45,512 nt of DNA from an uncultured virus (IMG/VR IMGVR_UViG_2049941000_000100). Lineage: Duplodnaviria; Heunggongvirae; Uroviricota; Caudoviricetes. Under the pieces are notes generated by a model, which was not told the origin of the DNA, made no database searches, and worked only from the letters and a program-made list of their open reading frames with translations. Of this stretch, positions 6,751-28,177 are shown piece after piece; within the stretch, counting starts at the first letter, position 1, and the number at the start of each line of letters is the position of its first letter. The translations under genes were made by a program, and so were the position numbers. The stretch lies in the IMG/VR virus record IMGVR_UViG_2049941000_000100; one strand, 5' to 3'.

Positions 6751-7007
6751 CATAATCGATGCATAATATGCATAAATATAAATGTATATTTATGCAAAAA
6801 TCCTGCATAATCGGTGTATATTGTGCATAAATTTGCGCGCGAAATAATATATAATATAGTATATAATATACAATCTGCGTCCGAAAGGTAAATAATATAT
6901 AATATATTTTTGCGAATAAAACTTGACAAAAGCCTAAATTTGTGGCCCGGGCACGCCGTATAATTATGCATTTATAATATAAAAAAAGAGGGTTTCCCCT
7001 CTTCTTT

Positions 7008-7313
7008 TTAGTTCTTCTTTTCGGACTTTTTCGCCTTCTTCTCGGCGGCCTTCTGCGCTTTCTTGCGCTTTTCGTCCTCATGGAACGCATAAGCCTGCGC
7101 CGCCTCAAAGGGGTCATAACCGCTACCATCACGAGGACCCTTCGGAATCTTCAAGACGATTTCGATGGCACCTTCCTCGCCGTCCTCGACAATGGGAACT
7201 GCGAAGGTATTGGAACCTGTCTGAAGGATATCGAAGCCAAAGGACTTCAAGGATTCAGTAATGTGGAAAACGAGGGTCTTACGAGATTCTTCACCGATTT
7301 TCTTAGTCGCCAT
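7008..7313 (-). CDS. Array family B protein, copy 1
   Basis: MATKKIGE...IPKG.R.GSGYD..E.AQAY plus Lys-rich tail; AAGGAG RBS. Confidence 0.8.
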   Translation of the reverse strand: MATKKIGEESRKTLVFHITESLKSFGFDILQTGSNTFAVPIVEDGEEGAIEIVLKIPKGPRDGSGYDPFEAAQAYAFHEDEKRKKAQKAAEKKAKKSEKKN

Positions 7314-7343
7314 AGTATTTGCTCCTTTCATCTTTCTAATACT

Positions 7344-7372
7344 ATTATAGACGATAAATACCCATTTGTCAA
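7344..7372 (-). promoter_or_regulatory. Consensus sigma-A promoter (representative of roughly 25-30 in the array)
   Basis: TTGACA-N17-TATAAT on - strand. Confidence 0.85.
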
Positions 7373-7453
7373 TACATAATATTTATTAATTTTTACTGTA
7401 TATTTATGCGCCGGCCCGGACCAAAGGTCCTACTTGGGTTTTTAGATTATATC

Positions 7454-7612
7454 TTATTCAATATAAAAACTTTGAATTTCTACATACTCATTATTACATT
7501 CCGCTTCTAACTGAAAATTCTCGGCTTTTTCTTTTGTTGAGAAAGTTCCTAAAATAGCCCAATCATTTTCATCATTACCACCAATTACAATATATACTTT
7601 ATGTTTTTTCAT
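7454..7612 (-). CDS. Small hypothetical protein (52 aa)
   Basis: MKKHKVYIV...ILGTFSTKEKAE; GGAAAGG RBS; own TTGACA-N17-TATAAT at 7643-7671. Confidence 0.7.
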   Translation of the reverse strand: MKKHKVYIVIGGNDENDWAILGTFSTKEKAENFQLEAECNNEYVEIQSFYIE

Positions 7613-7846
7613 TTTCTTCTTTCCTTTCCTTTTTCTAAATTTATTATAGCATATTAGTACTAAACTGTCAAGGGGATTTGAAAAATTTTTTAGTCCGACT
7701 ATTGCAATCTTTCTTGATGGGTTAGTTTCATCACTCTCGGACAGTGACTACTCGCTCAACCTCTCCCCTTGACACTATTATAATACCACACTCTATAGTA
7801 AAAGTCAATAGGGGAAAATAATATATTATTTTCGCCCGGGCGAACG

Positions 7847-8077
7847 TTACCCCTCTTTCTCTTGCAGAAATTCCTCGACATTATTGGCGATTACTTTACA
7901 ATACAAACCTAAATTATCTTGCATTAAATGGGTTTTGTTCAATAATTCGCCAGTAAAAAGATTTACAACTGCGCCGATGCCATCGCGTGAACATACTTTC
8001 ATGAAGTAGTATGCAGAAAAAGGGAATTGAATAATTGCGCCATCTTTAACACCTGCGTAATGGATAATTTCAGACAT
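7847..8077 (-). CDS. Small hypothetical protein, related to 12470-12703
   Basis: G..(I)F....MK....AV.L..G.L pattern shared. Confidence 0.7.
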   Translation of the reverse strand: MSEIIHYAGVKDGAIIQFPFSAYYFMKVCSRDGIGAVVNLFTGELLNKTHLMQDNLGLYCKVIANNVEEFLQEKEG

Positions 8078-8098
8078 CTTTATTTCATCCTTTATTTT

Positions 8099-8302
8099 TT
8101 AGAAACAAATTACATAAATCAAACTACTTACAACCAAAGGGATTAAACCCTTTCTGAGAAAAGTTACAATGAAAGCGAGAGGGTACCAAATCCAATCTGG
8201 CATATCTACCCAAGTTGAAAGTTCCCAGTCATCTACTCCATTCTGAAAAGTGCGATAAAGGGTCCATCCAACGCAGAATACTATCAAAGCAATAAGTTTC
8301 AT
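8099..8302 (-). CDS. Small two-helix membrane protein
   Basis: Hydrophobic segments, AAAGGA RBS, own promoter. Confidence 0.7.
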   Translation of the reverse strand: MKLIALIVFCVGWTLYRTFQNGVDDWELSTWVDMPDWIWYPLAFIVTFLRKGLIPLVVSSLIYVICF

Positions 8303-8411
8303 ATTTTTTATTTCCTTTCTTTTTTCTAAATATAGTATAGCAGATTAAAATTAAAAAGTCAATACTTCTAATTGTGAACTTTTTATGAACGCCCGGGCCA
8401 AACCGATGACT

Positions 8412-8699
8412 TCAACAGTCATCGGAATAGCAACCCATATAGGGGTCAAATCCCATATCAAGGTCCATCTCCATTTCTTCCTCGTAATCGGGTTCGTCTT
8501 CGTCCCAATCGTCACGAGAAGGCTCGCACTCCCACTTGTCCCAAGAGTCCTCTTCTTCGTATTCTTCGGGATAGTCTTCGGGTTCCTCTGCGCCGCACCA
8601 GTACTCGCAGTTTACATAATCGCCGTCATCGGCATAGGGGCAGTGGTGACGACCATCCAAATCGGGTTCGTCGCAAGGGGTCCATTTCTTAAGACTCAT
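8412..8699 (-). CDS. Very acidic Cys-containing protein
   Basis: C..CPY..C..WC N-terminus, D/E-rich, ends MGFDPYMGCYSDDC; AGGAGG RBS. Confidence 0.8.
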   Translation of the reverse strand: MSLKKWTPCDEPDLDGRHHCPYADDGDYVNCEYWCGAEEPEDYPEEYEEEDSWDKWECEPSRDDWDEDEPDYEEEMEMDLDMGFDPYMGCYSDDC

Positions 8700-8712
8700 T
8701 TTTATATCCTCC

Positions 8713-8895
8713 TTAATAAGTATCGTATCCCATCATTTCGGCCTCTTCGTCAGAGTAAATGCCGAGGCACCGAATCCTCTCGCCTTCCGCAACCTGTCGC
8801 GCCGTATAAAAAGCGCCATTCTTAGTCGTGGACTGAACGAAGAACTCTTCGCCCTCCCATTCACCGCTCATAATCTCGAACAAGTAATTATCCAT
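8713..8895 (-). CDS. Small hypothetical phage protein
   Basis: GEEFFV...EAEMMGYDTY; own promoter. Confidence 0.75.
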   Translation of the reverse strand: MDNYLFEIMSGEWEGEEFFVQSTTKNGAFYTARQVAEGERIRCLGIYSDEEAEMMGYDTY

Positions 8896-8953
8896 TTCGT
8901 TTAGTTCCTTTCCTTATCTTCTATAATTATTATATCACAAGTTTTTTATTTTG

Positions 8954-9127
8954 TCAACTATTTTCTTTTTTATATTTAATAGTTTCTTGACAAAAATATT
9001 CAATATCATTTATACGTAATTTCATAAGTAATGCATAGATAGTATCACAATACAGATAACAATGGTTAATACACCATTTTGCGATATAATTTAACACATG
9101 GTCTTTAAGTTCAAAAAGCCAGTACAT
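8954..9127 (-). CDS. Small hypothetical protein
   Basis: AAGGAG RBS before ATG 9127; own promoter. Confidence 0.55.
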   Translation of the reverse strand: MYWLFELKDHVLNYIAKWCINHCYLYCDTIYALLMKLRINDIEYFCQETIKYKKENS

Positions 9128-9267
9128 TTTATTTTCTCCTTTCATTTTCTGAATATAGTATAACATATAAGTTTTGAAATTGCAATACCTATTTTAATTT
9201 GTTCACAATTTGTTCATAAGTCCGCGGCCCGGGCACGAACGCGCATATTTATACGCGCCCTTGCATA

Positions 9268-9924
9268 TTAATTCGGGAGTCTGTTTGCATAAAGGCAACC
9301 ATCTATGCAACCCCTCCGCAAACATTCCACAAAAATGTCCTTTTCAATCATCACATCTTCAAGTCCTGTATGAGATTCGATAAAATTATTATCGCCACTC
9401 AAATATTTATACAAAACTTCTGCGGTGAACCTCGGTTTTTTATACATAGTCAGATAGTTATTATCGGCGCAAAACTTTTGGTATTCCTTATCTTTTCCAA
9501 AAACTTCTTTGGCCATTTTCAAACTATCCCAAATTTCTACGCCATAAGGGAAGAACCACCGAAACTTTGAGGAAGTCGCATACCTTTGGGAAAGATTGCA
9601 AGATTTATAGTCAAAACTTGCATTATGCGCCACGATTTTCTGTATATTATGCTGAACGCATACATCTTTCAGAATAAATTTTACAGTTTTCAATCTGCGC
9701 AGAAAACGCTTCCCATTCTTAATATCTTCCCAATATTGGGGGATTTTTTCCGCAAAGTATGCGCTTGCCATCAATTCCTTATCGAGAAAAAAATCCGCAA
9801 TTACATAACTATGTGATTCGTATACATGCCCTGTTGCATCAATAACTGCAAACCCAATATCATATACAATGGGGTCATCCAAGGAGTTCGCAGTTTCAGA
9901 ATCAAATACCAAATATTTTTCCAT
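9268..9924 (-). CDS. DEDDh 3'-5' exonuclease (DnaQ-like)
   Basis: ExoI VFDSET, ExoII AHNASFD, WDSL, ExoIII HTGLEDV. Confidence 0.85.
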   Translation of the reverse strand: MEKYLVFDSETANSLDDPIVYDIGFAVIDATGHVYESHSYVIADFFLDKELMASAYFAEKIPQYWEDIKNGKRFLRRLKTVKFILKDVCVQHNIQKIVAHNASFDYKSCNLSQRYATSSKFRWFFPYGVEIWDSLKMAKEVFGKDKEYQKFCADNNYLTMYKKPRFTAEVLYKYLSGDNNFIESHTGLEDVMIEKDIFVECLRRGCIDGCLYANRLPN

Positions 9925-10051
9925 TCGCTTTATTTTCCTTTCCTCAACTCACAAGTAAAGTATACCACCATCAACCGAAAAAGTCAATCCCTAAAATTGT
10001 AAACAAAATATGAACGAGTGCAAATCGCCCGGGGAGTTAGGGATGGTTAAC

Positions 10052-10201
10052 CTAGTCCTCATCCCATCCTCGTTTATGCTTCTGTTTGCGGGAGTATTTT
10101 TTCTTGTCCTTTTCAATGCGAGTGTAAGGTTTTACCCCACCCCAATCGCCACGAATTTTATTGAGTGCGCGCAACTGTGCATCAGAAATTTTTCTTTCCA
10201 T
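10052..10201 (-). CDS. Basic 49-aa peptide, ArfA-like motif (54 aa to TAA 10037 if TAG is read)
   Basis: MERKISDAQLRALNKIRGDWGGVKPYTRIEKDKKKYSRKQKHKRGWDED; TAATG overlap with upstream gene. Confidence 0.65.
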   Translation of the reverse strand: MERKISDAQLRALNKIRGDWGGVKPYTRIEKDKKKYSRKQKHKRGWDED

Positions 10202-10395
10202 TAAAAACCAATTCTCCTTTTGTTTTCTCCACTAATAAGGTTGTAAGTCATGCCCTGTTTTTCATACACAGAAATCTGTGCAGAATTTTTATGCTCTCTG
10301 AAAACCTTATAGTATTCATCGACTTCGGCCTGTTCTTCGACCTCGAAGAAACCATAACTTCCATTAATACCTTTAATCTGAATAATGTACTGCAT
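10201..10395 (-). CDS. Small hypothetical protein
   Basis: AAAGGA RBS, own promoter, ends RRIGF. Confidence 0.7.
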   Translation of the reverse strand: MQYIIQIKGINGSYGFFEVEEQAEVDEYYKVFREHKNSAQISVYEKQGMTYNLISGENKRRIGF

Positions 10396-10633
10396 AACTG
10401 TTTTCCTTTCTTCTTTCTGATATTAGTATACCAAATAGGATTTGAAAAGTCAACCCACTTCACAAAAAGTTCACAATTTATTTTGCCCGGGCCACGCTCT
10501 ACCCTTACATCGACGCACTATTGGCAATTCGCGTAGTCTATAGGCATCAACCACGAGAAAAGGCCTACCCAATGTGCGCCCATGTAAGGATAGGGGGAGA
10601 GGGGTTTGGATACCCCTCTCCGAGGGGTTTGGA

Positions 10634-10972
10634 TTAGAGGGAGTACCCCTTCACAATCCGCTTGTCCACTTGCACATCACTAATGGTGATGTCCGCAATC
10701 CGCTTGCAGATAGCGGTGGCCTTAGAGGTACTCTCGATGCCGTCAATGGCATCACGAATCTGAGAGGCCGTCCGCACCTGATGGTCAGCGAGCAGAGCCT
10801 TCACAGCATCCACGAGGGGAGCATCCTCAGAGGAACGCTTCTCAGCGGCCTTCTGCGCCCTGCGCTCAGCCTCAGCGGCCATCTTCGCAAGCTCAGCCTG
10901 CGCCTTCTCAGCCATCTCAGCAGTCACCACAGCACCCTCAACAACAGCAGTCAGCATTTCCTTCATCGTCAT
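10634..10972 (-). CDS. Array family A protein, copy 2
   Basis: MTMKEML...IESTSKATAICKRI...VKGYSL; AAAGGA RBS; hairpin 10596-10621 downstream. Confidence 0.8.
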   Translation of the reverse strand: MTMKEMLTAVVEGAVVTAEMAEKAQAELAKMAAEAERRAQKAAEKRSSEDAPLVDAVKALLADHQVRTASQIRDAIDGIESTSKATAICKRIADITISDVQVDKRIVKGYSL

Positions 10973-11140
10973 AGTTCTTGTTTCCTTTCTCGTTTTTTNN
11001 NNNNNNNNNNNNNNNNNNNNNNNNNNNNNNNNNNNNNNNNNNNNNNNNNNNNNNNNNNNNNNNNNNNNNNNNNNNNNNNNNNNNNNNNNNNNNNNNNNNN
11101 NNNNNNNNNNNNNNNNNNTAAAATTTCTTTGAAAAATTTT

Positions 11141-11216
11141 TGGTGGGAGAGGGGGGATTCGAACCCGCCACCGCAGTTGAGTAGTGTCAACCTCATTACC
11201 ATTGTGATACTCTCCC
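11141..11216 (-). tRNA. tRNA-like gene with non-canonical anticodon loop (CACUAC)
   Basis: 76 nt: acceptor GGGAGAG/CTCTCCC-A-CCA, D loop AATGGTA, stem GTTGA/TCAAC, GGTTCGAATCC T loop; promoter just upstream. Confidence 0.7.
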
Positions 11217-11361
11217 TTGGAACAATTATAGTATAGCAAATAGGGGTCTAAAAGTCAACCCTTTTTTCAGAACTAAAAGAGTTAATTTGTCCTTTTAATG
11301 GGTCTATTTCGACCCGGGCAAGTTTATGCATCGCGCGCATAAATATGAAAAGAAAGGACTT

Positions 11362-11805
11362 TTATGCAAGTCCTTTCAGAATCTCGATGATATTATTTAC
11401 ATCAAACGCTGTACCTTTCCATTCATTTCGGTTATTACTCTCATCATCGAAGAGAATACCTTTGGGGAAGTTTACCATTGAACTTTTCGGAGTACCATAT
11501 GCAACAATGTGAATTTCGTCAAACTTTACACTTTTCAAATGAGTGGAAAGCCACTTCTTTTTTGCGTTTGTTACTTTCATATCATAATCGCTATTCGGAA
11601 TTTTGGAAAGCCAACTCACGATACCGATTTTATATCCTTTCGCCTGTAAGTTATTCAAAAGTCTTGCAAGACTATTCATATTTACCAAAGGTTTTGCGAT
11701 TTCATAAGGAGTAGAATCATATGCCCTTAACATATCCAACCAGTTATTAACTCCATAAAGATTGGCGATTGTTCCATCCATATCGAAGTAGATTGCTTTA
11801 GTCAT
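11362..11805 (-). CDS. HAD-family 5'(3')-nucleotidase-like protein, copy 1
   Basis: FDMDGTIA motif I, IVSW motif II, K, ILFDD motif IV. Confidence 0.85.
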   Translation of the reverse strand: MTKAIYFDMDGTIANLYGVNNWLDMLRAYDSTPYEIAKPLVNMNSLARLLNNLQAKGYKIGIVSWLSKIPNSDYDMKVTNAKKKWLSTHLKSVKFDEIHIVAYGTPKSSMVNFPKGILFDDESNNRNEWKGTAFDVNNIIEILKGLA

Positions 11806-11955
11806 TTTCGGAAGTCCTTTCCTCTTTTCTTGTCTATATTATAAACTATAAACTTAAATTTGTCAATAACTTTTTTACCCGTTCATAAAAAGTTCACAAT
11901 TGCGCCCGCCCGGGCAAGTTAGCAACCGCTAACCGATGTATAAAAAAAGAGAGTG

Positions 11956-12058
11956 TTAACTCTCCTTTTTCGCCTTTTCGGCTTTCTTTTCGGCCTTTAC
12001 TTTCTTTTCATTCTGCTTGAAAGTGTATGCCTGTGCATCTTCATACACATCATATCCA
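11956..12058 (-). CDS. Array family B protein, 3' fragment cut by gap
   Basis: GYDVYEDAQAYTFKQNEK...ES, nearly identical to 13860 copy. Confidence 0.6.
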
Positions 12059-12469
12059 NNNNNNNNNNCACTTTCTGTAATTATTATAGCACATCTTTTT
12101 CTTTTTGTCAACCCCTTTTTTCAACTTTTTTTAAGTTTTTTTCGGAGTTCTTGGGGAGTGCCATCCCTTACTTTCTGTACTTAGTTTACCATATTCGGCG
12201 TTGGTTGTCAAGGGGTTTTTCAAAATTTCTTTGAAAAATTTTTCGGGGGTCTCTGTGCCAAAGCACTGCTCTCTCCGCCCCTTGACGACCTTCTTTTCCT
12301 TTGAGAGTGAGTGCCCTCGGCTGTTTTCCTCACTCCCTTGGAACAATTATAGTATAGCAAATACCACCCTAAAAGTCAACCCCTTTTTTAAAATTAAAAG
12401 AGTTAATTTGTCCTTTTTATGGGTCTATTTTTCGCCCGGGCGAAAAGGCATAACGCCTTTTTATAGATA

Positions 12470-12703
12470 TTAATTCTCAATATTATGAATGGTTAGTTCG
12501 GCATCAAGTTTTAATACTAACGCATCATCATCATAAGTTGTAAGGCATCCAATGGATAGGCAGACGGCATTGTATTTTTCTTGCTCGGCTTCAATAGAAT
12601 TAATTTTCATACAGATAGAATTATCCATAGGGTCTTTAAAAATTTCACCCCAATTAATGTCTTTAAAAGTTTCAATGTCTGGAGTTTTGTCATTAATTAT
12701 CAT
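12470..12703 (-). CDS. Small hypothetical protein, related to 7847-8077
   Basis: AAAGGA RBS, own promoter. Confidence 0.75.
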   Translation of the reverse strand: MIINDKTPDIETFKDINWGEIFKDPMDNSICMKINSIEAEQEKYNAVCLSIGCLTTYDDDALVLKLDAELTIHNIEN

Positions 12704-12847
12704 AATTTTTATTTCCTTTCTTTTTTTCTAAATATAGTATAGCAAATGAAAGTAAAATTGTCAATACTTNNNNNNNNNNTTGTGAACTTTTTATGAATGT
12801 CCGGGCAATTTATGCACTGCGCGTATAAATATAAAAAGAAAGGACTT

Positions 12848-13291
12848 TTATGCAAGTCCTTTCAGAACTCCAATGATATTATTTACATCGAACGCTGTAC
12901 CTCTCCATTCATTTCGGTTATTACTCTCATCGTCGAAGAGAATACCTTTGGGGAAATTTACCATTGAACTTTTCGGAGTACCATATGCAACAATATGAAT
13001 TTCGTCAAATTTTACGCTTTTCAAATGGATGGAAAGCCACTTCTTTTTTGCGTTCGTTACTTTCATATCATAATCGCTATTCGGAATTTTGGAAAGCCAA
13101 CTCACGATACCGATTTTATATCCTTTCGCTTGCAAGTTATTCAAAAGCCTTGCAAGACTATTCATATTTACCAAAGGCTTTGCGATTTCGTAAGGGGTGG
13201 AATCATATGCCCTTAACATATCCAACCAGTTATTAACTCCATAAAGATTGGCGATTGTTCCATCCATATCGAAGTAGATTGCTTTAGTCAT
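12848..13291 (-). CDS. HAD-family nucleotidase-like protein, copy 2
   Basis: Differs from copy 1 at only a few residues. Confidence 0.85.
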   Translation of the reverse strand: MTKAIYFDMDGTIANLYGVNNWLDMLRAYDSTPYEIAKPLVNMNSLARLLNNLQAKGYKIGIVSWLSKIPNSDYDMKVTNAKKKWLSIHLKSVKFDEIHIVAYGTPKSSMVNFPKGILFDDESNNRNEWRGTAFDVNNIIGVLKGLA

Positions 13292-13433
13292 TTTAGGAAA
13301 TCCTTTCCTCTTTTCTTGTCTATATTATAACGTATATTTTTAAATTTGTCAATAACTTTTTTACTCGTTCATAGAAAATTCATAATTGCGCCCGCCCGGG
13401 CAAAGAGGCATAACGCCTCGTTATAATTAATAT

Positions 13434-13649
13434 TTATTCTCCATCTAATAGGAGTTCTCCCAAATTATTTTCAACTCGTTCAATACAGCAAACTTCACAG
13501 TCTTCTTGATAGATAGCCTCAATAAGTTCTTGCGAAAGTTGGTTTGCTCCTTCAAAGTCCCTACTCCAGAAATCTTCGCTGGCGAGAATATCAAACTTGT
13601 CATCAACTTTGACTTCAATTTCTTTAATAACTTTTGCAATTACTTTCAT
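13434..13649 (-). CDS. Small acidic hypothetical protein
   Basis: AAGGAG RBS, TAA stop. Confidence 0.7.
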   Translation of the reverse strand: MKVIAKVIKEIEVKVDDKFDILASEDFWSRDFEGANQLSQELIEAIYQEDCEVCCIERVENNLGELLLDGE

Positions 13650-13859
13650 ATTACTCTCCTTTTAATTATTTAATATTCTGATATGATTGAATCAATAAGG
13701 TCTCAAAGTAGTTCCCATCTTTTTATTTTCCTTTCCTTTTTCTAAATATAGTATAACAAAAGAATTCTTATTTGTCAACTCTTTTTTTAGAAAAAAATAA
13801 TATATTATTTGCGCCCGGTCGGTTAGCAACTGTTAACCAACGTATAAAAAAAGAGAGTA

Positions 13860-14289
13860 TTAACTCTCCTTTTTCGTCTTTTCGGCTTTCTTTTCGGCCT
13901 TTACTTTCTTTTCGTTCTGCTTGAAAGTGTATGCCTGTGCATCTTCATACACATCATATCCACTCCCATTACGTTCGCCCTTGGGAATCTGAAAGACTAC
14001 CTTGACGGCAGTTTCTTCTTCACCCTCTACTGCGGGGATACCATAAGAACCAGATGCGACTTGCAACACATCATATCCTGCGGCAATCAACGCATTNNNN
14101 NNNNNNGCGTTCGCCCTTGGGAATCTGAAAGACTACCTTGACGGCAGTTTCCTCTTCATTTTCTACTGCGGGGATACCATACGAACCAGATGCGACTTGC
14201 AACACATCATATCCTGCGGCAATCAACGCATTTTTGCAAATCTCCATAATCCGCGCGCGAGTGGATTCGCCAATCTTCTTTTGTACCAT
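13860..14289 (-). CDS. Array family B protein (middle part duplicated across a 10-N gap)
   Basis: MVQKKIGESTR...GYDVLQVASGSYGIPAVE...IPKGERNGSGYDVYEDAQAY; another 5' end at 14599-14636. Confidence 0.7.
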
Positions 14290-14374
14290 TAAATTTTCCC
14301 CTTTCATTTTTTCTAATATAATTATATCATAAAATTTAAATTTTGTCAAGTTTTAATTTTAAATTTTAATTTTA

Positions 14375-14456
14375 TTCCAAGGGGTTTACGTTCGTCAACG
14401 TTGGGACTCGAACCCATTTGGGATTTTGGCTGCCACCCTTTTCCATCCCCTTGGAA
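14375..14456 (-). ncRNA. Candidate small RNA with tRNA-type T arm
   Basis: Closing stem TTCCAAGGGG/CCCCTTGGAA, internal TGGGTTCGAGTCCCA, promoter directly upstream, no ORF. Confidence 0.5.
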
Positions 14457-14713
14457 CACTTATATTATAAACTATAAAATTCAAAATTGCAAGTCCTTTT
14501 TAGAAAATATATAATATATTATCTGCGCGCCCGGGTGAGTTAGCATACGCTAACTCGTATGTAAAAAGAAAAGGGCAGTTATGCCCTTNNNNNNNNNNTG
14601 CGCGCGAGTGGATTCGCCAATCTTCTTTTGTGCCATTAAATTTTCCCCTTTCATTTTTTCTAATATTATTATATCACAAAATTTAAATTTTGTCAAGTTT
14701 TAANNNNNNNNNN

Positions 14714-14898
14714 CACCCTACGGTGTTAAGGGCTCGTACCTCTCTCGGCATGTAATCCTCGCCGCGCTTTTACTTCGGTTCCCCGACTTACGGACTCTCG
14801 TGGGTCTCTGGCTTTACAGTAGCGGGCTTCGCTTTCGCGGGCTGAACGCTGGCTCCTTGCCGAAGGGTTTTAAGGGTTTTCCTTCCCTCACTTTCTGT
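14714..14898 (-). ncRNA. Candidate GC-rich structured RNA
   Basis: Follows TTGACA-N17-TATAAT (14903-14931); no ORF recognised; TCGGCA/TGCCGA pairing, CGC-GAAA-GCG tetraloop. Confidence 0.4.
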
Positions 14899-15116
14899 AG
14901 TTATTATACCACAGAATGGTTTCTTTGTCAAGAGGTTTTTCAAACTTCTTGGAGGAGTTGGGTGGCCTTCCCTTCCCTCATCTTCTGTAAGTATTATAGC
15001 ACGCGCTTGTTAAAAAGTCAATAGGTTTTTAAATAATATATAATATATAATTTGCGCGCCCGGGCAATAGTTAGCATATGTTAATCTGCGCCGTAAAAAT
15101 AAAAGCCTTTCGGCTT

Positions 15117-15566
15117 TTACTTACAATTCATGTCCAACCATTCTTTCATTTTTTTACTTTCACTATAAATTTTGATTTTAATGCCGCCGCCATTTTTTTT
15201 GCTTTCTCTATCGAGGGCGGCGAACTTGTGAATGAACTTGGAGAATTCGTTGATGTTCATGAAGTAAGTGTCGCAATCGTTAAGGACGAGGGCGAAAGTA
15301 TCGGAATGAGTGTTCTTGCGGAACCGCCGCCAAATACCCTCGAAAGTGTGGCAACCCTTGCAAAAACCGCCGCTCATGAGGGTTGCGCTCGGAGTTTTGA
15401 CGGAGATGTTCATGTTGTCCAGTTCAATGTCGGAACCCACATTGTAAGGAGTCTTATCATGTGTCGTGCGCTCGATGCCGTAGTAGTTGCAGAGAGACCA
15501 TTCTTTGTTGATGCCGTTGTTCTTGGTGGCGGTGATTTCGAAATCTTTGATGTTGATGTGTTTCAT
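15117..15566 (-). CDS. Hypothetical protein, possible PD-(D/E)XK nuclease fold
   Basis: E...SDIE....ISVK...ATL pattern; AAAGGA RBS; own promoter. Confidence 0.7.
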   Translation of the reverse strand: MKHINIKDFEITATKNNGINKEWSLCNYYGIERTTHDKTPYNVGSDIELDNMNISVKTPSATLMSGGFCKGCHTFEGIWRRFRKNTHSDTFALVLNDCDTYFMNINEFSKFIHKFAALDRESKKNGGGIKIKIYSESKKMKEWLDMNCK

Positions 15567-15963
15567 GTTTTTGTTTTCCTTTCTTTTGATGTCTTAAGTA
15601 TACACTATAAAACCGGGTTTGTCAACTACTTTTTTTATTGTTCATAATTTGTTCATAAATTCGCCTTCGCCCGGGCAAGATGTATATATGCAGTATAAAT
15701 GAGTATTTATACATTGAACTGTTGCTTCTCTGTTTGCGTCCCCTCTGTGGTGCCACTCCTTGTCTCTTTCTAATATTATTATAACATAAAAAAAAGGATT
15801 TGTCAACCCCTTTTTTATTTTTTTTCTGTTTTATTTGTNNNNNNNNNNAGTATATTTATGCACAAAACCGTTGCTTCTCTGTTTGCGCTCCCTCTCGGTA
15901 CCACTCCCCGTCTCTCTTTCTAATATTATTATAACATAAAAAAAGGATTTGTCAACCCCTTTT

Positions 15964-16155
15964 TTATTTTTTTTCTGTTTTATTTGTTAAATTATGAAAC
16001 ACGATACCGTCAACATGCTGTGCTTCTAATTGTGCAACCCATTCACTATTGAATGTAGCATGGCAATAAAACTGCCCACGATAGACTTTAGCCACAATGA
16101 ATTCGCGTTTTTCATCTGTAGAGGTCATTCCGGAAATGTAAACATTAGTAAGCAT
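15964..16155 (-). CDS. Small hypothetical protein
   Basis: AAGGAG RBS, own promoter. Confidence 0.7.
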   Translation of the reverse strand: MLTNVYISGMTSTDEKREFIVAKVYRGQFYCHATFNSEWVAQLEAQHVDGIVFHNLTNKTEKK

Positions 16156-16210
16156 TTTTTTATCTCCTTTTCTTTTTCTGATTAGATTATATCACGGGGA
16201 AAGGGATTTG

Positions 16211-16345
16211 TCAACCCTTTTTTAGAATTTTTTTATTTTTTCCAATGGTTCCAACCAATTCCCAACCATCAAATTGGGGAATCCAATCCACTGGCATTTC
16301 ATAAATTTTCCCAGTATAAATACTTTTCCAAAGATTAACTTTCAT
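16211..16345 (-). CDS. Small hypothetical protein (44 aa)
   Basis: MKVNLWKSIYTGKIYEMPVDWIPQFDGWELVGT; RBS and promoter. Confidence 0.6.
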   Translation of the reverse strand: MKVNLWKSIYTGKIYEMPVDWIPQFDGWELVGTIGKNKKILKKG

Positions 16346-16499
16346 TTTTTAATTCCCTTTCCTTTTTCTTGACTTAAGTATACCATACTTATTCCGGTTT
16401 GTCAACTACTTTTTTAAAATATATAATATATAATTTTGGGAGTTGGCCCGGGCCAGTAGTATTTAACGAATAGTTGAAAGTATAAAAAATAGGAGAATT

Positions 16500-16685
16500 T
16501 TATTCTCCTACCATTTCATTATATATTATATCCATTACATCTTTTGCGTCTTCTTTGCTTTGACATTCAATAGTCATATATTCATCGGAATTTTTGAAAT
16601 ATAACTTGATTATTGAGTGGACAATCATCGCATTACGAATTTCTTCGCAATTTATGATATTTCCATAAATATAAACGACTTTCAT
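16500..16685 (-). CDS. Small hypothetical protein
   Basis: GGAGG RBS before ATG 16685. Confidence 0.7.
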   Translation of the reverse strand: MKVVYIYGNIINCEEIRNAMIVHSIIKLYFKNSDEYMTIECQSKEDAKDVMDIIYNEMVGE

Positions 16686-16689
16686 ATTC

Positions 16690-16785
16690 TTACCTCCCAA
16701 AAATCTCGGAAATTTTGAAAACCAAAACGGTACGCCAGTTCTCGAACCCGTATTTTGCGATTACCTTATTCTGCAACTTCTTCAT
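16690..16785 (-). CDS. Small peptide (31 aa)
   Basis: MKKLQNKVIAKYGFENWRTVLVFKISEIFGR; GAGG RBS, promoter. Confidence 0.55.
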   Translation of the reverse strand: MKKLQNKVIAKYGFENWRTVLVFKISEIFGR

Positions 16786-16865
16786 TTTTCTGTACCTCTT
16801 TCTCTTTTCTTGATTAAATTATACACTATAATTTCCGGATTGTCAATACTTTTTTTGAAAAAAGT

Positions 16866-17006
16866 TTATCCTAAAAGCCATAAAATTGTGAGAAAACTGG
16901 CGGCGCCGAAAATTGCGGGAATAAGAATCCTACAAATCCAAATCACGTCAAAGAGGAAAGAATAAGGACGGACTTTTATGATTTTGTTAAGAACACGAAT
17001 TTTCAT
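16866..17006 (-). CDS. Small membrane peptide (46 aa)
   Basis: GAGG RBS, hydrophobic C-terminus. Confidence 0.55.
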   Translation of the reverse strand: MKIRVLNKIIKVRPYSFLFDVIWICRILIPAIFGAASFLTILWLLG

Positions 17007-17217
17007 GGAATTTTCCTCTCTTTTTATTTTCTAAATAAATTATATCGTAAAATTATGAATAATTCAAGTTTTAAATATTAAGAAATTTTAAACTGCTGGC
17101 GGCGCGCCCGGGCAAATTAAAATATGAATAAATTATGAACAATTATAAAATCCGGTTGACAATAGAAAAATATAGTGTATAATATAGGTAGAAAGAGAGA
17201 AAGAGAGGAAATAAAAA

Positions 17218-17382
17218 ATGTTCACTCTGAATTACAGTAGAGGTATAAAATGGAATGGTTATATGCACTTCGATAGTGAGATTGATGCAATCAATACTGC
17301 GTGGGGTATGTACGTTGAGAAGTTTGCCGATAAAGTAACTGTTACTGATAAAGATGGGAACGTTGTTTACCATATGGCATAA
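17218..17382 (+). CDS. Small hypothetical protein in an inverted cassette (54 aa)
   Basis: TTGACA(17156)-N16-TATAAT, GAGG RBS, TAA stop, hairpin 17386-17411. Confidence 0.75.
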   Translation: MFTLNYSRGIKWNGYMHFDSEIDAINTAWGMYVEKFADKVTVTDKDGNVVYHMA

Positions 17383-17520
17383 AGATATAGTTACTATATA
17401 GTAACTATATATTTATATCTGCTGGCGGCTACCTTAGTTAGCGACCGCTAACCTTTGCCCGGGCAAGAGTTAGTCTATGCTAACTAACTATTAACCTCCC
17501 ATTTGCTTTTGTTATGGTTC

Positions 17521-17958
17521 TTATGCGAGAGACTTGAGAACGTTGATGATGTTGGAAGGCGTGTATGCTTTGCCGTTCCAGTTTGCTCTATTGGCGGCCT
17601 CATCGTCAAAGAGGATTCCACCACCGCAGAGAGTGGATTTATTAGTTCCGTAAGGTACAATATGGATTGTGTCAAATTTGATGCTTCCCAGATGCTTCTT
17701 CAACCATTTGATTTTGCTGGCGGCAACCTTTGCATTGTAGTTTGCGCTTCCGCCTTTAGAAGTCCAACTAATGATGCCGACTTTATAACCTTTGGCCTGT
17801 ACCTTGTGGATTGCTTTGGCAAGAGTGTTCATGTTGCCGATAACGCTGGCGGCGGTGTAAGGGCTTGCGTCCTCGGCTACCAGTTTGGCAAGCCAGTTAG
17901 GAACGTTGTAGAGGTCTGCGATTGTGCCGTCCATATCGAACCAAATTGCCTTTTTCAT
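17521..17958 (-). CDS. HAD-family nucleotidase-like protein, copy 3 (diverged)
   Basis: FDMDGTIADLY, IISW, ILFDDE. Confidence 0.85.
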   Translation of the reverse strand: MKKAIWFDMDGTIADLYNVPNWLAKLVAEDASPYTAASVIGNMNTLAKAIHKVQAKGYKVGIISWTSKGGSANYNAKVAASKIKWLKKHLGSIKFDTIHIVPYGTNKSTLCGGGILFDDEAANRANWNGKAYTPSNIINVLKSLA

Positions 17959-18041
17959 TGCCTTAGCTCCTCTCTTAGCTTCTGTCTTATTATACTATAT
18001 TGCTGGCGGCTTGTCAACCCCCAGGGGGCCCGGGCCAGGGG

Positions 18042-18500
18042 TTAGGCCCCCAGGCCCGCCAGGCTCTTCTCGTTTGCGAAGGTGGCTTTCGTGTACTTGA
18101 TTTGGTACTTGATTCCGTCCACCGTCAGGTCCCCGTCCTCGGTGAAAGGTACGTTGTCTTTCGCCCATTCCTGACCAGCGGCCTCGGTGACCAGCTTCTC
18201 GAAAATCTCACCCCGATTGTACTTGCTGGCCTTAACCGTGGCTTCGAAAGTCGCTTCGTCGCACACCACCTGCGCGCCCATAGCCAACAGAGCCGCTTTG
18301 AGTTCGTTCTTCGGATTGAAGCGCAGGCTTGCTGTCCGAGAGCGACTGTCATAATCCATGCAGGTTACAGCCTCGAGAGCTTCAGCCGTCATATGCATGC
18401 AGGTCACGGCGTAAACCGTCTTCTTGTAGGCAAAGCCGAAAATATAGTTGTGAGTGGCCGCCGCTTCATTGTACCGCTTTACCATGCTAAAGTGTTTCAT
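18042..18500 (-). CDS. Hypothetical protein, possible PD-(D/E)XK-like fold
   Basis: GEIFEK...GDLTVDGIKYQIK..ATF; GGAGG and AAGGA upstream of ATG 18500. Confidence 0.7.
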   Translation of the reverse strand: MKHFSMVKRYNEAAATHNYIFGFAYKKTVYAVTCMHMTAEALEAVTCMDYDSRSRTASLRFNPKNELKAALLAMGAQVVCDEATFEATVKASKYNRGEIFEKLVTEAAGQEWAKDNVPFTEDGDLTVDGIKYQIKYTKATFANEKSLAGLGA

Positions 18501-18832
18501 ATCCTTAAAACCTCCGAACGTTGGGACGGTTCTCCGTCCTCTTGAGTACAGTATACGCCCATATAGGCCCATTTACAAGGGGATAAGGGTATAGTTCACA
18601 GATAGTTCACAATTTAACGTTTATCATTAAAATCTCTTTTTCGGGATAAAAGATACAAAATTTTGAAGTATATACCATACTTTTATATATCATATATTAT
18701 ATACAAAAAAATCCCCACGGGGGAGTGGAATTGGGTAAAATGTGAACTTTTTATGAACGGGTGCAAGCGCCCGTTAGCATACGCTAACTCGTATGTAAAA
18801 AGAAAAGGGCAGTTATGCCCTTTTCCTATGGA

Positions 18833-19174
18833 TTACAGAGAGTAACCCTTGACAACCCTCTTGTTGACAACGACCTCGCTCACCTTGACACCCTCGACCA
18901 TCTTCAAGATGGCGGTGGCCTTAGAGGTAGAGTCGATGCCCTCGATGGCATCCTTGACCTCGGCGGCGGTGAACACCTTAGAGGAGTTCCGCAGAAGGTT
19001 CGTGACGGCCTCGACAAAAGGCGCATTTTCGGCGGCACGCTTCTCGGCGGCCTTGGAGTTACGGCTTGCGTTCTCCTTATCCATCTTCAAGATGGCATTG
19101 GCGGCGAACTCACGCAGTTCGGCAGAGAGGTTCTCGTTGGTGGCAATAGCATTGTAGAATTCCTTGGTACGCAT
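18833..19174 (-). CDS. Array family A protein, copy 3
   Basis: MRTKEFY...IDSTSKATAILK...VKGYSL; AAAGGA RBS. Confidence 0.8.
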   Translation of the reverse strand: MRTKEFYNAIATNENLSAELREFAANAILKMDKENASRNSKAAEKRAAENAPFVEAVTNLLRNSSKVFTAAEVKDAIEGIDSTSKATAILKMVEGVKVSEVVVNKRVVKGYSL

Positions 19175-19680
19175 AGTTTTTTTATTTCCTTTCTTGCGTT
19201 GGTCGCAACCCTTTCTATTTAGTAAGGACTTTCGTCTCTCACTTTCTGAATTCATTATACCATAGGTTTGGTAGTTTGTCAAGGGGTTTTTCAAATTTCT
19301 TTGAAAAAGTTTTTTGGAGAATTTGTGTGACGAACTGCAGAAGTTCACACGCCTCGGGGCACTCCCCATTGGGCACTTGGTTCGTTCCTTCATCTCCTTG
19401 GAACAATTATAGTATAACCGATAGAGGGATAAAAGTCAATGGGTTTTTAAATAATATATAATATATTATCTCGGCGGCCCGGGTGAAAGTTAGCAAGTGC
19501 TAACCTATATATAAAAAGAAAGGGGNNNNNNNNNNNNNNNNNNNNNNNNNNNNNNNNNNNNNNNNNNNNNNNNNNNNNNNNNNNNNNNNNNNNNNNNNNN
19601 NNNNNNNNNNNNNNNNNNNNNNNNNNNNNNNNNNNNNNNAATAAATTTTTCATTTAGATATATTTTAATAAGTCTAAAAT

Positions 19681-28157: not shown

Positions 28158-28177
28158 TTTTGAAGGAGGATAAGAAT

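What the first reader, a model, noticed from the sequence alone, without database searches (positions are those of the whole stretch)
6945..19484. Candidate phage gene-cassette system: ~20 self-contained units separated by a GCCCGGGC palindrome
Seen: 14 exact and 7 one-mismatch GCCCGGGC sites, mostly 350-850 bp apart, always intergenic in AT-rich DNA. I saw no CCCGGG elsewhere in the window. On the - strand a typical unit reads site, motif, sigma-A promoter, RBS, gene(s) or short RNA, terminator, motif, site. Known parallels: integron attC cassettes, T4-type PeSL promoter cassettes and SPO1-type host-takeover regions. Inference: the site is a crossover point for gain, loss, duplication and inversion of early or anti-host genes. 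No recombinase lies in this window.
Basis: partly seen in the sequence, partly recalled or inferred. Interest (0 to 1): 0.92.

Follow-up and report, generated by a model that had tools for sequence, protein, structure and literature searches.

The report
Palindrome-jointed early-gene cassettes of a phage
A rumen phage that reads TAG as an amino acid keeps about twenty self-contained early mini-genes in a row, each joined to the next at the 8-letter palindrome GCCCGGGC, and related phages have swapped, gained, lost and once flipped these units at that joint, much like the known promoter-terminator cassettes of T4-type phages.

Summary
There are 14 exact and 7 one-mismatch GCCCGGGC sites, all in 6945-19484 (0.17 exact expected), and every CCCGGG of the window lies there. 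Each site sits between a terminator or hairpin and a host-type promoter; 20 of 21 have a promoter within 70 nt. Contiguous relatives carry the same arrays, and whole relatives carry the motif only there.

Sequence similarity between junctions switches partner within 1-2 bp of the 8-mer: 36 one-sided pairs against 16 two-sided. Cassette order differs between relatives and in an independent sample. One cassette is inverted.

A control limits this. The -35 and -10 hexamers are equally sharp joints, and one cassette loss maps to a shared -35. No integrase, resolvase or ParB was found in 5 relatives. Sister lineages use other palindromes at the same position.

Best reading: a PeSL-like linker, probably a protein site, exchanged by short-homology recombination and not an integron-like system.

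This scan noted GCCCGGGC joints before on other DNA (e1-5850729, e1-5922876).

The parts
6945..19484 (-). Array of about 20 early-gene units in the standard code, transcribed on the - strand (one unit inverted) and delimited by GCCCGGGC sites
6945..6952 (.). site, exact (last of the array in the direction of transcription)
7414..7421 (.). site, one mismatch (GCCCGGAC on +)
7834..7841 (.). site, exact
8391..8398 (.). site, exact; its promoter module resembles that of site 12799
9227..9234 (.). site, exact; in run X5 it is joined to 13810 instead of 9226
10027..10034 (.). site, one mismatch (GCCCGGGG)
10485..10492 (.). site, exact
11312..11319 (.). site, one mismatch (ACCCGGGC); terminator side resembles 12799, promoter side resembles 12434
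11908..11915 (.). site, exact; terminator side resembles 13813, promoter side resembles 13394
12434..12441 (.). site, exact
12799..12806 (.). site, one mismatch (GTCCGGGC)
13394..13401 (.). site, exact
13813..13820 (.). site, one mismatch (GCCCGGTC)
14529..14536 (.). site, one mismatch (GCCCGGGT); followed 2 bp later by a 50-bp exact repeat of 18773-18822
15058..15065 (.). site, exact
15669..15676 (.). site, exact
16446..16453 (.). site, exact
17106..17113 (.). site, exact; promoters diverge from it on both strands
17457..17464 (.). site, exact; GTTAGC-N4-GCTAAC-type hairpins on both sides
18028..18035 (.). site, exact; the -35 box lies only 10 nt downstream
19477..19484 (.). site, one mismatch (GCCCGGGT); first of the array
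17114..17456 (+). Inverted cassette: + strand TGAAT/TGAAC repeat, perfect promoter at 17156-17183, RBS, ORF 17218-17382 (54 aa), palindromic terminator 17379-17416, hairpin 17437-17452
11314..11917 (-). Cassette with an NT5C/HAD-type deoxyribonucleotidase gene (11362-11805); 93.9% identical to 12801-13403, and the match runs from site to site
12801..13403 (-). Second copy of that cassette (gene 12848-13291), set between different neighbours
17521..17958 (-). Third NT5C-type paralogue
9268..9924 (-). 218-aa protein (phrog_20187); the DxE, HNxxFD and Hx4D motifs read from its sequence suggest a DEDDh-type 3'-5' exonuclease; it is the one cassette shared by all relatives used here
   Evidence: the exonuclease reading is my own reading of the motifs
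18766..18822 (.). GCGCCC half-site joined directly to the hairpin and terminator that follow site 14529 (6 nt missing relative to that junction), then the 50-bp exact repeat
11918..11933 (.). Example of the GTTAGC-N4-GCTAAC hairpin next to a site; 7 copies in all (11918, 13822, 14539, 17437, 17469, 18773, 19489) against 0.06 expected
8375..18758 (.). Span holding 11 copies of TGAAC-N6-TGAAC (direct repeat with an 11-bp period, found in either orientation), which lie between a site and a -35 box in many units; 2.2 expected
19766..21202 (+). Sigma-factor-like gene (phrog_5767, E 2.5e-14) with 15 in-frame TAG codons, divergent from the array; first gene of the TAG-recoded late block

Best explanation
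The region is the early, host-RNA-polymerase-driven accessory block of a large rumen phage that reads TAG as an amino acid in its late genes. It is a tandem array of autonomous units, each made of a promoter, an RBS, one to three small genes and a terminator. GCCCGGGC marks the seam between the terminator-and-hairpin end of one unit and the promoter module of the next. The seam works as a 'linker' in Botstein's sense and like a PeSL of T4-type phages. Because it is the same short word at every junction, terminator-side and promoter-side modules are re-joined there. The -35 and -10 hexamers serve as joints in the same way. This re-joining causes gain, loss, reordering, duplication and occasional inversion of units.

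Inferred: the exchange is done by the phage's general recombination and replication machinery acting on short homology, by annealing or template switching. A G+C-only palindrome in A+T-rich DNA favours this. No dedicated integrase is involved.

Also inferred: the word is kept constant because it is a functional DNA site, most likely bound by a lineage-specific dimeric protein that marks or insulates unit boundaries. Recombination at it would then be a consequence of its conservation.

Shown: the anatomy, the array in relatives, the base-pair-level mosaic junctions, the differences in unit order, and the absence of canonical recombinases in relatives.
For: - Enrichment and position.
- The array is real in contiguous contigs: L040 has 14 exact sites and L041 has 13, with no N in either.
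- The motif is confined to one cluster in whole relatives: G003, 124 kb, has 7 sites, all within 90754-95704, and the reversed-word control gives 0.
- Mosaic junctions: among 188 sites of 14 loci, 16 pairs are alike on both flanks, 16 only on the terminator side and 20 only on the promoter side. Identity drops from 0.75-1.0 to background within 1-2 bp of the 8-mer.
- 42 of 164 ends of BLAST similarity blocks (HSPs; at least 80% identity and at least 100 bp, 12 loci) lie within 5 bp of a site, against 5.4 expected.
- Unit strings differ by whole units and by order: WIN, L040 and L041; L003 (D C E A G S) against L016 (.. C A T M M).
- The roughly 700-bp indel between L002 and L003 is bounded by site variants.
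- A 13-kb contig of the independent run X5 joins 13810 to 9238 through CTTCGCCCGGGC.
- One cassette is inverted between sites 17106 and 17457.
- For general rather than site-specific exchange: the -35 and -10 hexamers are equally sharp joints, and the N-cassette loss in L041 maps to a shared 19-bp -35 stretch.
- PF00589 and PF00239 give 0 of 5 relatives while the controls ring. Among the 125 ORFs of G003 there is no recombinase or transposase, but there are an AAA_24 protein (Sak4-like by my recall), RuvC-like, RuvB, RecJ-like, UvrD and a ligase.
- For a functional site: the array persists in relatives whose marker protein is only 51-59% identical (L113 has 11 exact sites, L067 has 10).
- Mismatches avoid the centre: counts by folded position, outer to centre, are 22, 33, 8 and 2 of 65.
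- The flanks show a symmetric exclusion: no A at -1 and no T at +1 in 115 sites.
- Sister lineages place other palindromes at the same terminator-to-promoter position: L018 has 14 copies of TTAGACGT-N3-ACGTCTAA against 0 expected, and L020 has 28 CATGCATG.
Against: - No binding protein has been identified.
- The conservation test across aligned junctions is weak. The site is 0.946 identical against 0.84-0.85 for the flanks, but about 0.92 is expected from the way sites were chosen.
- 8-10 bp is short for ordinary homologous recombination, so the precision at the 8-mer could equally point to a dedicated enzyme.
- About 14 promoters in the array have no site, so the site is not needed for promoter or terminator function.
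- BLAST tends to pull block ends that lie within about 10 bp onto a G+C-rich word, which inflates the count. One search does not suffer from this on the unlike side.
- The pairs are not independent events, because related genomes share junctions.
- No whole genome of the window's own phage is held, so a recombinase encoded elsewhere in it cannot be excluded.
- The window's internal order rests on a scaffold with N gaps.
Confidence: 0.58

Rival explanations
1. There is a dedicated site-specific system. An as yet unrecognised, lineage-specific phage protein (a nuclease, a recombination mediator or a novel recombinase) recognises the palindrome. It breaks or pairs DNA there, so that cassettes are excised, inserted and inverted by an integrase-independent but targeted mechanism.
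For: - Junctions are precise to 1-2 bp at an 8-mer that offers too little homology for ordinary recombination.
- The centre, CCGG, is the most constrained part, as in the crossover cores of site-specific systems.
- The flanks show a symmetric exclusion.
- Different palindromes in sister lineages fit co-evolving protein-site pairs.
- A half-site is joined to foreign sequence at 18766-18772.
- One cassette is inverted between two sites.
- The PeSL authors raised the same idea for T4 deletions at GGGC/GCCC words (PMC2839356, section 21).
- A PDDEXK_5 endonuclease of G003 has homologues in G002 (53% identity) and weakly in G001, and none in three relatives that lack the array. This is a lead only, confounded by relatedness.
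Against: - The -35 and -10 hexamers are joints of the same sharpness and frequency.
- One cassette loss maps to a promoter, not to the site.
- No tyrosine or serine recombinase was found in 5 relatives, and no transposase family among the 125 ORFs of G003.
- No inversion polymorphism was found among 191 units of 18 loci.
- The PDDEXK_5 gene lies among homing-endonuclease-like genes and tRNA-like DNA, far from the array.
Confidence: 0.2
2. The site is a purely regulatory or architectural mark. On this reading the palindrome is an operator, roadblock or insulator for a regulator and plays no part in recombination. Similarity switches there only because functional modules begin and end there, and selection keeps only the recombinants that leave modules whole.
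For: - The site always lies between terminator and promoter, at a variable distance (10-54 nt) from the -35 box.
- Other motifs that look like protein sites share the spacer: the TGAAC-N6-TGAAC repeat (11 found against 2.2 expected) and the hairpins.
- Sister lineages have other operator-like palindromes, including a 19-bp inverted repeat typical of dimer operators.
- No recombinase was found.
Against: - Any joint between the terminator's T-run and the upstream promoter element would leave modules whole, yet the switch is focused on the 8-mer to within 1-2 bp.
- A site-to-site duplication and a site-bounded indel are seen.
- About 14 promoters do without the site.
- ParB_N was found in 0 of 5 relatives, and no helix-turn-helix family hit any of the 28 array proteins at E 0.01.
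Confidence: 0.18
3. The pattern is an artefact or chance: a product of scaffolding, of strain mixing or of base composition.
For: The window is a scaffold with seven N runs inside the array. Its order around 14589 and 18772 disagrees with the contigs of runs X1, X5 and X7 and with L040 and L041. The two 94%-identical cassettes could come from two strains.
Against: 14 exact copies are found against 0.17 expected. Arrays of the same kind occur in N-free contigs from other samples and in IMG/VR records. The mosaic argument holds whether the copies lie in one genome or in two strains.
Confidence: 0.02

Closest known systems
PeSL (promoter-early stem-loop) cassettes of T4-type phages (Arbiol et al. 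2010, PMC2839356: abstract and sections 13, 16 and 21 read; Comeau et al. 2014, PMC4122927: abstract and outline only)
   Same: Both are composite terminator or stem-loop plus strong host-type early promoter elements, with an A+T-rich upstream part, lying between small accessory genes of a hyperplastic region. In both, indels and replacements between close relatives sit at these elements, no dedicated recombinase is known, and G/C tracts are present in the element. The PeSL authors also cite T4 deletions ending at GGGC/GCCC words.
   Different: Here one invariant 8-bp palindrome with no loop sits at the seam, separate from the terminator hairpin, and the joints map to it within 1-2 bp. [quoted passage not shown] The phage is not T4-like: it has a PolIII-alpha replicase and a phage sigma factor, it reads TAG as sense, and its promoters and RBS are of the Firmicutes type. 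Mini-circles were not tested here.
Botstein-Campbell 'linker' sequences of modular phage evolution (as summarised in PMC2839356, section 21; original papers not seen)
   Same: Short conserved sequences flank exchangeable modules and both place and regulate the incoming module.
   Different: Those were proposed for lambdoid functional modules. Here the modules are single mini-operons, about 20 in a row, and the linker is an 8-mer whose sequence differs between sister lineages.
Integron cassette arrays (attC x attI, IntI)
   Same: A tandem array of small, mostly unknown genes separated by a repeated palindromic element; cassette content and order vary between relatives.
   Different: No IntI-type integrase was found in relatives. 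There is no attC-type long imperfect hairpin. Every cassette has its own promoter and terminator instead of sharing a common Pc. One cassette is inverted.
SPO1-type host-takeover module (recalled; no paper read)
   Same: A dense run of very strong sigma-A promoters, strong RBS and small early genes.
   Different: In relative G003 the array is not in the terminal repeat. No conserved junction palindrome is known to me for SPO1.
Stoperators of cluster A mycobacteriophages (recalled; no paper read)
   Same: Many copies of one short site in intergenic DNA of a phage, thought to act at the DNA level on transcription.
   Different: Stoperators are asymmetric 13-mers spread over the genome of temperate phages and bound by the immunity repressor. 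Here the site is a palindrome confined to the early array of an apparently virulent phage (no integrase in relatives).

Membership tests
PeSL-type regulatory cassette (works-like class) | Composite of a sigma-70-type early promoter with an A+T-rich upstream part and a stem-loop or terminator, lying between genes | tested here: met
   20 of 21 sites have a promoter scoring at least 9 of 12 within 70 nt. My reading of the fold lines gives a hairpin ending within a few nt upstream of about 15 of 21 sites, and 11 of 21 have a strict T-run within 90 nt upstream.
PeSL-type regulatory cassette (works-like class) | Concentrated in a hyperplastic region of small accessory genes or ORFans | tested here: met
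   At the thresholds used (Pfam E 0.01, PHROGs E 0.001), 17 of 28 array proteins hit no Pfam family and 20 of 28 hit no PHROG. The motif occurs only in this block in G001-G005.
PeSL-type regulatory cassette (works-like class) | Indels and replacements between close relatives lie at the elements | tested here: met
   joints lie at the 8-mer and also at the -35 and -10 boxes.
PeSL-type regulatory cassette (works-like class) | Circular excision products (mini-circles) | not testable with these tools
   Only contigs were laid. One 'goes back' joint (19220 to 8927, side 31) lies at promoter repeats and is not interpretable.
PeSL family in the strict sense (T4-type myoviruses) | The host genome is a T4-type phage | tested here: not met
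   Relative G003 has a PolIII-alpha replicase, gyrase-like topoisomerase, RuvB and a sigma-like gene. The window's late genes read TAG as sense. The judgement that this is not T4-like is inferred from that gene content.
Integron | IntI tyrosine recombinase next to the array | tested here: not met
   PF00589 was found in 0 of 5 relatives, while the control rings in 14 of 14 genomes. None was found among the window proteins scanned: 28 array ORFs against Pfam and PHROGs, and 22 others against PHROGs only. The window's own full genome is not held.
Integron | attC sites: long imperfect hairpins with R and L boxes | tested here: not met
   The repeated element is an 8-bp perfect palindrome. The adjacent hairpins have 6-8-bp stems of varied sequence. 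The attC consensus itself is recalled, not taken from a tool.
Integron | Promoterless cassettes read from a common promoter | tested here: not met
   Each unit has its own promoter and terminator.
SPO1-type host-takeover module | Lies in the long terminal redundancy | tested here: not met
   G003 is classed as having direct terminal repeats, and its 7 sites lie at 90754-95704 of 123,981. This could not be tested for the window's own genome.
REP/BIME with RAYT, or IS200/IS605-type hairpin elements | Y1 (HUH) transposase and a conserved subterminal hairpin | tested here: not met
   No Y1_Tnp hit among the 125 ORFs of G003 at E 1e-5. The hairpins next to the site vary in sequence. No dedicated genome search with that family was run.
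ParB/KorB-type long-range silencing at palindromic operators | A protein with the ParB N-terminal domain is encoded | tested here: not met
   PF02195 was found in 0 of 5 relatives, while the control rings in 11 of 14 genomes.

The most novel reading that the evidence does not exclude
The palindrome is the recognition site of a dedicated phage-encoded protein that co-evolves with it: GCCCGGGC here, TTAGACGT-N3-ACGTCTAA and CATGCATG-type words in sister lineages. That protein breaks or pairs DNA at the centre of the site. These phages would then carry a targeted, integrase-free system for cassette exchange and inversion, a phage counterpart of the integron built from promoter-bearing cassettes.
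Probability: 0.15. Interest if true: 0.9.

Novelty: new variant of a known kind. Interest (0 to 1): 0.6.

Why it matters
This case shows modular shuffling of early or anti-host genes with unusual clarity. One invariant 8-letter word sits at every seam, the joints are mapped to the base pair, and sister lineages use different words at the same position. It comes from a phage group far from T4: gut and rumen phages of Firmicutes-type hosts that recode TAG. That makes an old question directly testable: are phage 'linkers' passive patches of homology, or protein-recognised sites? The seams also give a practical handle for finding and delimiting accessory-gene cassettes, likely host-takeover and counter-defence genes, in uncultured phages.

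Tried and rejected
- Megablast of the array against GenBank phages found no match.
- No whole genome is held for the window, so the genome-wide count was made on relatives instead.
- Rfam at gathering thresholds gave 0 matches. No tRNA was found in the window.
- Other G+C-rich palindromes in relatives are different things. GGCGCGCC in L016 and CGTATACG in L006 and L018 either overlap the site or sit in a 47-bp tandem array.
- The test for purifying selection across aligned junctions is inconclusive, because sites were chosen as exact in one partner.
- A search for units inverted between genomes found no match of 100 bp or more among 191 units.
- Host-operator idea, taken from earlier notes of this scan and tested with consensus words that I recalled. 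A Rex-type box gives only 3-mismatch hits, and those are direct rather than inverted repeats (10 found against 3.0 expected). A LexA/Cheo-type box gives 9 against 9.6 expected.
- A literature search by the bare motif returned only primers and unrelated uses. Two keyword searches for phage palindromic linkers found no description of this system. A search for the A-DNA link was unhelpful.
- Joints with sides of 19-31 letters, mostly promoter to promoter, are not counted as evidence. Parts of the array with low cover in X5-X8 are not interpreted. Depth in X1 was not used to decide whether the two 94%-identical cassettes are paralogues or strain variants.
- The PDDEXK_5 co-occurrence is kept only as a lead.
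- timed out and was rerun.

Full report
**1. The observation**

GCCCGGGC occurs 14 times in the window, against 0.17 expected (the largest of 100 shuffles gave 2), and all copies lie between 6945 and 18035. Allowing one mismatch gives 22 hits. Of these, 21 lie in 6945-19484 and one stray lies at 30647 inside a late gene. CCCGGG occurs 18 times against 3.41 expected, and all 18 lie in the same region. Of the 20 spacings, 19 are 351-836 bp and one is 1449 bp. The count, the coordinates and the claim 'no CCCGGG elsewhere' are therefore right.

The window is a scaffold. It has 29 N runs. Six 10-N gaps and one 120-N run lie inside the array. At one of the 10-N gaps a contig of run X1 shows that the true gap is 3 nt (table 4). 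The internal order of the array in the window is therefore not fully reliable.

**2. Context**

Long ORFs on the + strand from 19.7 kb onward appear only if TAG is read as an amino acid. Fourteen late ORFs hold 115 in-frame TAG codons in 5,667 codons. PHROG matches there include:
- a sigma-factor-like protein (19766-21202);
- terminase and portal;
- a virion structural protein (32452-33324);
- the tape measure.

I take 28160-29224 to be the major capsid protein. That rests on its position and on my own judgement; its PHROG families carry no name.

The array lies on the - strand, diverges from the sigma-like gene, and reads in the standard code. Its 23 RBS-supported ORFs end in TAA (18), TGA (4) or TAG (1).

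At the thresholds used (Pfam E 0.01, PHROGs E 0.001), 17 of 28 array proteins hit no Pfam family and 20 of 28 hit no PHROG. The hits that carry a functional name are three NT5C/HAD-type deoxyribonucleotidase paralogues and a 218-aa protein with a weak match to a DNA polymerase exonuclease subunit. The rest are families or domains of unknown function, or weak hits below the curated cut-offs. The 218-aa protein (phrog_20187) has DxE, HNxxFD and Hx4D motifs that read like a DEDDh exonuclease; that reading is my own.

The region holds 16 perfect 12-of-12 sigma-70-type promoters, 15 of them on the - strand, and 31 terminator-like sites against 12.9 expected. The runs that hold the DNA are bovine and other ruminant gut metagenomes. 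The consensus promoters and strong RBS point to a Firmicutes-type host; this is an inference.

**3. Anatomy of a seam**

Read on the - strand, a seam runs as follows:
- the gene end;
- a terminator stem with a T-run;
- a few nt;
- a small hairpin of varied sequence. GTTAGC-N4-GCTAAC occurs in 7 cases against 0.06 expected;
- T, then T or C;
- GCCCGGGC;
- a G or C;
- one of several upstream modules. These are an alternating A/T block, a TGAAC-N6-TGAAC direct repeat in either orientation (11 found against 2.2 expected), or a third type;
- the -35 box, 10-54 nt after the site;
- the -10 box, the RBS and the gene.

20 of 21 sites have a promoter scoring at least 9 of 12 within 70 nt. About 14 further promoters in the array have no site (my count), so units can hold two to four promoters and the site is not a part of the promoter itself.

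In 115 distinct exact sites from 14 loci, A never occurs at -1 and T never occurs at +1, which is a symmetric exclusion. Among 65 one-mismatch sites, the mismatches fall at folded positions 1 to 4 (outer to centre) 22, 33, 8 and 2 times. The central CCGG is therefore the most constrained part.

**4. Relatives**

The 218-aa protein found 25 IMG/VR loci and 80 metagenome loci.
- The closest contiguous relatives carry arrays like the window's. L040 has 14 exact sites and 18 within one mismatch in 10 kb. L041 has 13 and 18. Neither contains an N.
- Arrays persist where the marker protein is only 51-59% identical: L113 has 11 exact sites and L067 has 10.
- In whole records the word occurs only in this block. 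G001 has 2 copies, G002 has 6, G003 has 7 (all at 90754-95704 of 123,981), G004 has 6 and G005 has 4. The reversed-word control gives 0 in all five.
- More distant relatives lack the array. G007 and G008 have none, and G006 has one overlapping double copy.
- Of the 80 metagenome loci, 22 have no exact site.

**5. Do breakpoints fall on the site?**

Within the window:
- A 604-bp segment (11314-11917) is 93.9% identical to 12801-13403, and the match runs from site to site.
- Other similarity blocks end exactly at a site: 11212-11319 with 12333-12441, 8290-8398 with 12691-12806, and 11907-12058 with 13812-13962.
- The partner of a site on its terminator side differs from its partner on the promoter side. 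Site 11312 resembles 12799 on one side and 12434 on the other. Site 11908 resembles 13813 and 13394.

Between genomes:
- L002 and L003, which are 95% identical, differ by a cassette of about 700 bp bounded by site variants.
- A unit of L003 (7436-8220) matches L016 (9116-9877) from site to site, in a different order of units.
- Written as strings of site-to-site units, the loci read as follows:

| Locus | Units |
|---|---|
| WIN | . B H I N J . K . B . . B O . A P . . L |
| L040 | B H I N J Q K B O . A P . . L . R |
| L041 | H I J . Q K B . . . A . . . L R |

Counts:
- Among 12 representative loci, 42 of 164 ends of BLAST similarity blocks (HSPs; at least 80% identity, at least 100 bp) lie within 5 bp of a site, against 5.4 expected. 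A further 43 lie 6-60 bp away.
- An earlier, smaller set gave 15 of 65 against 1.8 expected.
- BLAST can pull ends that lie within about 10 bp onto a G+C-rich word, and related genomes share junctions. These counts are therefore not counts of independent events.

The sharper test anchors pairs of sites without gaps. Among 188 sites, 16 pairs are alike on both flanks, 16 only on the terminator side and 20 only on the promoter side. In the one-sided pairs, identity stays at 0.75-1.0 up to the base next to the 8-mer. It falls to 0.1-0.5 from the first or second base beyond it.

One cassette (17106-17457) is inverted as a whole between two sites. This explains the promoters on both sides of site 17106 and the hairpins on both sides of site 17457.

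**6. Independent sample**

A 13-kb contig of run X5, from another study, lies on the window in this order: [..13810] CTTCGCCCGGGC [9238-10525] [11213-12058] [14111-14538] [18773-19416] [14714-15762] [16399-18783] [19791-20500].
- Its unit order therefore differs from the window's, and one new adjacency passes exactly through a GCCCGGGC.
- Contigs of X1, X5 and X7 join 14538 to 18773 through a 50-bp exact repeat that begins 2 bp after site 14529. L040 and L041 have that same order.
- The window's own order there rests on a 10-N gap. It may be a scaffolding error or a real variant.
- At 18766-18772 the window has a GCCC half-site joined directly to the hairpin that elsewhere follows site 14529.
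- Several promoter-to-promoter joints with short sides are not counted as evidence.

**7. The control that limits the claim**

The same anchored test on promoter hexamers gives joints just as sharp.
- At the -35 box (184 anchors): 25 pairs alike on both sides, 9 left-only and 40 right-only.
- At the -10 box (185 anchors): 28, 31 and 13.

The loss of cassette N in L041 maps to a 19-bp stretch around the -35 box that two promoters share, not to the site. Every short conserved word of the seam is thus a joint, and the 8-mer is not uniquely hot.

No Phage_integrase, Resolvase or ParB_N domain was found in 5 relatives, three of them 97-100% complete, while the controls ring. The 125 ORFs of G003 include no recombinase or transposase family at E 1e-5. 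They do include an AAA_24 protein (Sak4-like by my recall), RuvC-like, RuvB, RecJ-like and UvrD proteins, a ligase and a type II topoisomerase.

**8. Other lineages use other words**

L018 is a relative without GCCCGGGC. It has 14 copies of TTAGACGT-N3-ACGTCTAA (13 exact; 0 expected). All 14 lie between a terminator and a promoter, 316-830 bp apart. L020 has 28 CATGCATG words, several of them upstream of early promoters. The position and the palindromy are conserved; the word is not.

**9. Explanation**

The best-supported reading is a PeSL-like seam. An invariant word at every terminator-to-promoter junction, together with the promoter hexamers, serves as the point where modules are re-joined.
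- I infer that exchange is by the phage's general recombination or replication machinery on short homology, through annealing or template switching. A G+C-only palindrome in A+T-rich DNA would favour this, and its palindromy allows inversions.
- I also infer that the word is kept because it is a functional site for a lineage-specific dimeric protein, by analogy with the promoter hexamers. Those are conserved for binding and are joints for that reason.

The main rival is a dedicated protein that cuts or pairs the site. It is kept at 0.2. An 8-10-bp homology is very short, the centre of the site is the most constrained part, and sister lineages have their own words. A purely regulatory reading is kept at 0.18.

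**10. Comparison with what is known**

PeSLs of T4-type phages are the closest known system (PMC2839356, sections 13, 16 and 21 read; PMC4122927, abstract only). They share the composite promoter plus stem-loop, the hyperplastic region, the indels at the elements, the absence of a known recombinase, and even G/C tracts. The PeSL paper also cites T4 deletions ending at GGGC/GCCC.

The differences are the loop-free invariant 8-mer with base-pair-precise joints, the lineage-specific words, and a quite different phage group.

The array is not an integron, because it has no IntI, no attC and its own promoters. It is not a SPO1-type terminal-repeat module, and it is not a REP/RAYT or ParB/KorB system by the features tested.

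Searches of the held library by the motif and by keywords found no description of this system. Papers outside that library were not searched.

Earlier notes of this scan describe GCCCGGGC, GGCCGGCC and GCCGGC seams on other DNA. They are leads, not support, and I reached my readings from my own calls.

**11. Verdict**

This is a new variant of a known kind, with interest 0.6.

Noticed in passing
window 19715-45512 (+ strand): The late structural block is open only if TAG is read as an amino acid: 115 in-frame TAG codons in 14 ORFs, including 15 in the sigma-factor-like gene. The putative capsid gene 28160-29224 and the structural gene 32452-33324 have none. The early array reads in the standard code. 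No suppressor tRNA lies in the window.
   Followed up: partly
window 6540-6760: At the downstream end of the array there is a run of six or so AAAATTTGACA words, each holding a -35-like TTGACA, interleaved with four GCAGCTGC palindromes and CGCAGCTTT repeats. Similar 'aaatttgac' words follow the last site in L006 and L016. Function unknown; it could be an origin, a sigma sink or a boundary of the array.
   Followed up: no
window 14539-14713 and 18573-19640: The window's order here disagrees with the contigs of runs X1, X5 and X7 and with L040 and L041. Those place the 18773-19416 unit directly after site 14529 and join 18772 to 19640. The cause is either a scaffolding error at a 10-N gap or a real translocation variant.
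   Followed up: partly
window 17092-17102, 17419-17429, about 18000-18010: A third short word, CTGCTGGCGGC on the + strand, occurs three times next to sites or inside a promoter spacer.
   Followed up: no
window 11230-11215, 12351-12335, 14464-14445, 19411-19395 (- strand): Four promoters share a conserved transcript start, TAATTGTTCCAAGGGAG, which carries the RBS. These units have very short leaders and are unlikely to be RNA genes.
   Followed up: partly
L018:3959-10686: A relative without GCCCGGGC has 14 copies of TTAGACGT-N3-ACGTCTAA, each between a terminator and a promoter. A second word, CCTCCAGT, recurs near them.
   Followed up: partly
L006:12790-12931: A tandem array of a 47-bp unit that holds CGTATACG lies just beyond the cassette block of a relative. 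L018 has scattered CGTATACG words at the corresponding place. These may be iterons or a packaging signal.
   Followed up: no
L038:2441-3550 (record G003) and window 11362-11805, 12848-13291, 17521-17958: The relative encodes an adenylosuccinate-synthetase-like protein, a dUTPase and an anaerobic ribonucleotide reductase. The window carries three early deoxyribonucleotidase paralogues. Together these hint at remodelling of the nucleotide pool, and perhaps at a modified base in the DNA.
   Followed up: no
L034:7226-7927 and L035:1192-1869 (record G003): GIY-YIG endonuclease genes interrupt the gyrase B-like and the PolIII-alpha genes of the relative, leaving split genes. HNH-like ORFs and a PDDEXK_5 endonuclease lie in a tRNA-like region at L033:5771-9238.
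   Followed up: partly
G002 (record of L002), both ends: The 112.9-kb contig begins at base 2 and ends at its last base with GCCCGGGC. The assembly evidently broke at the repeated seams.
   Followed up: no
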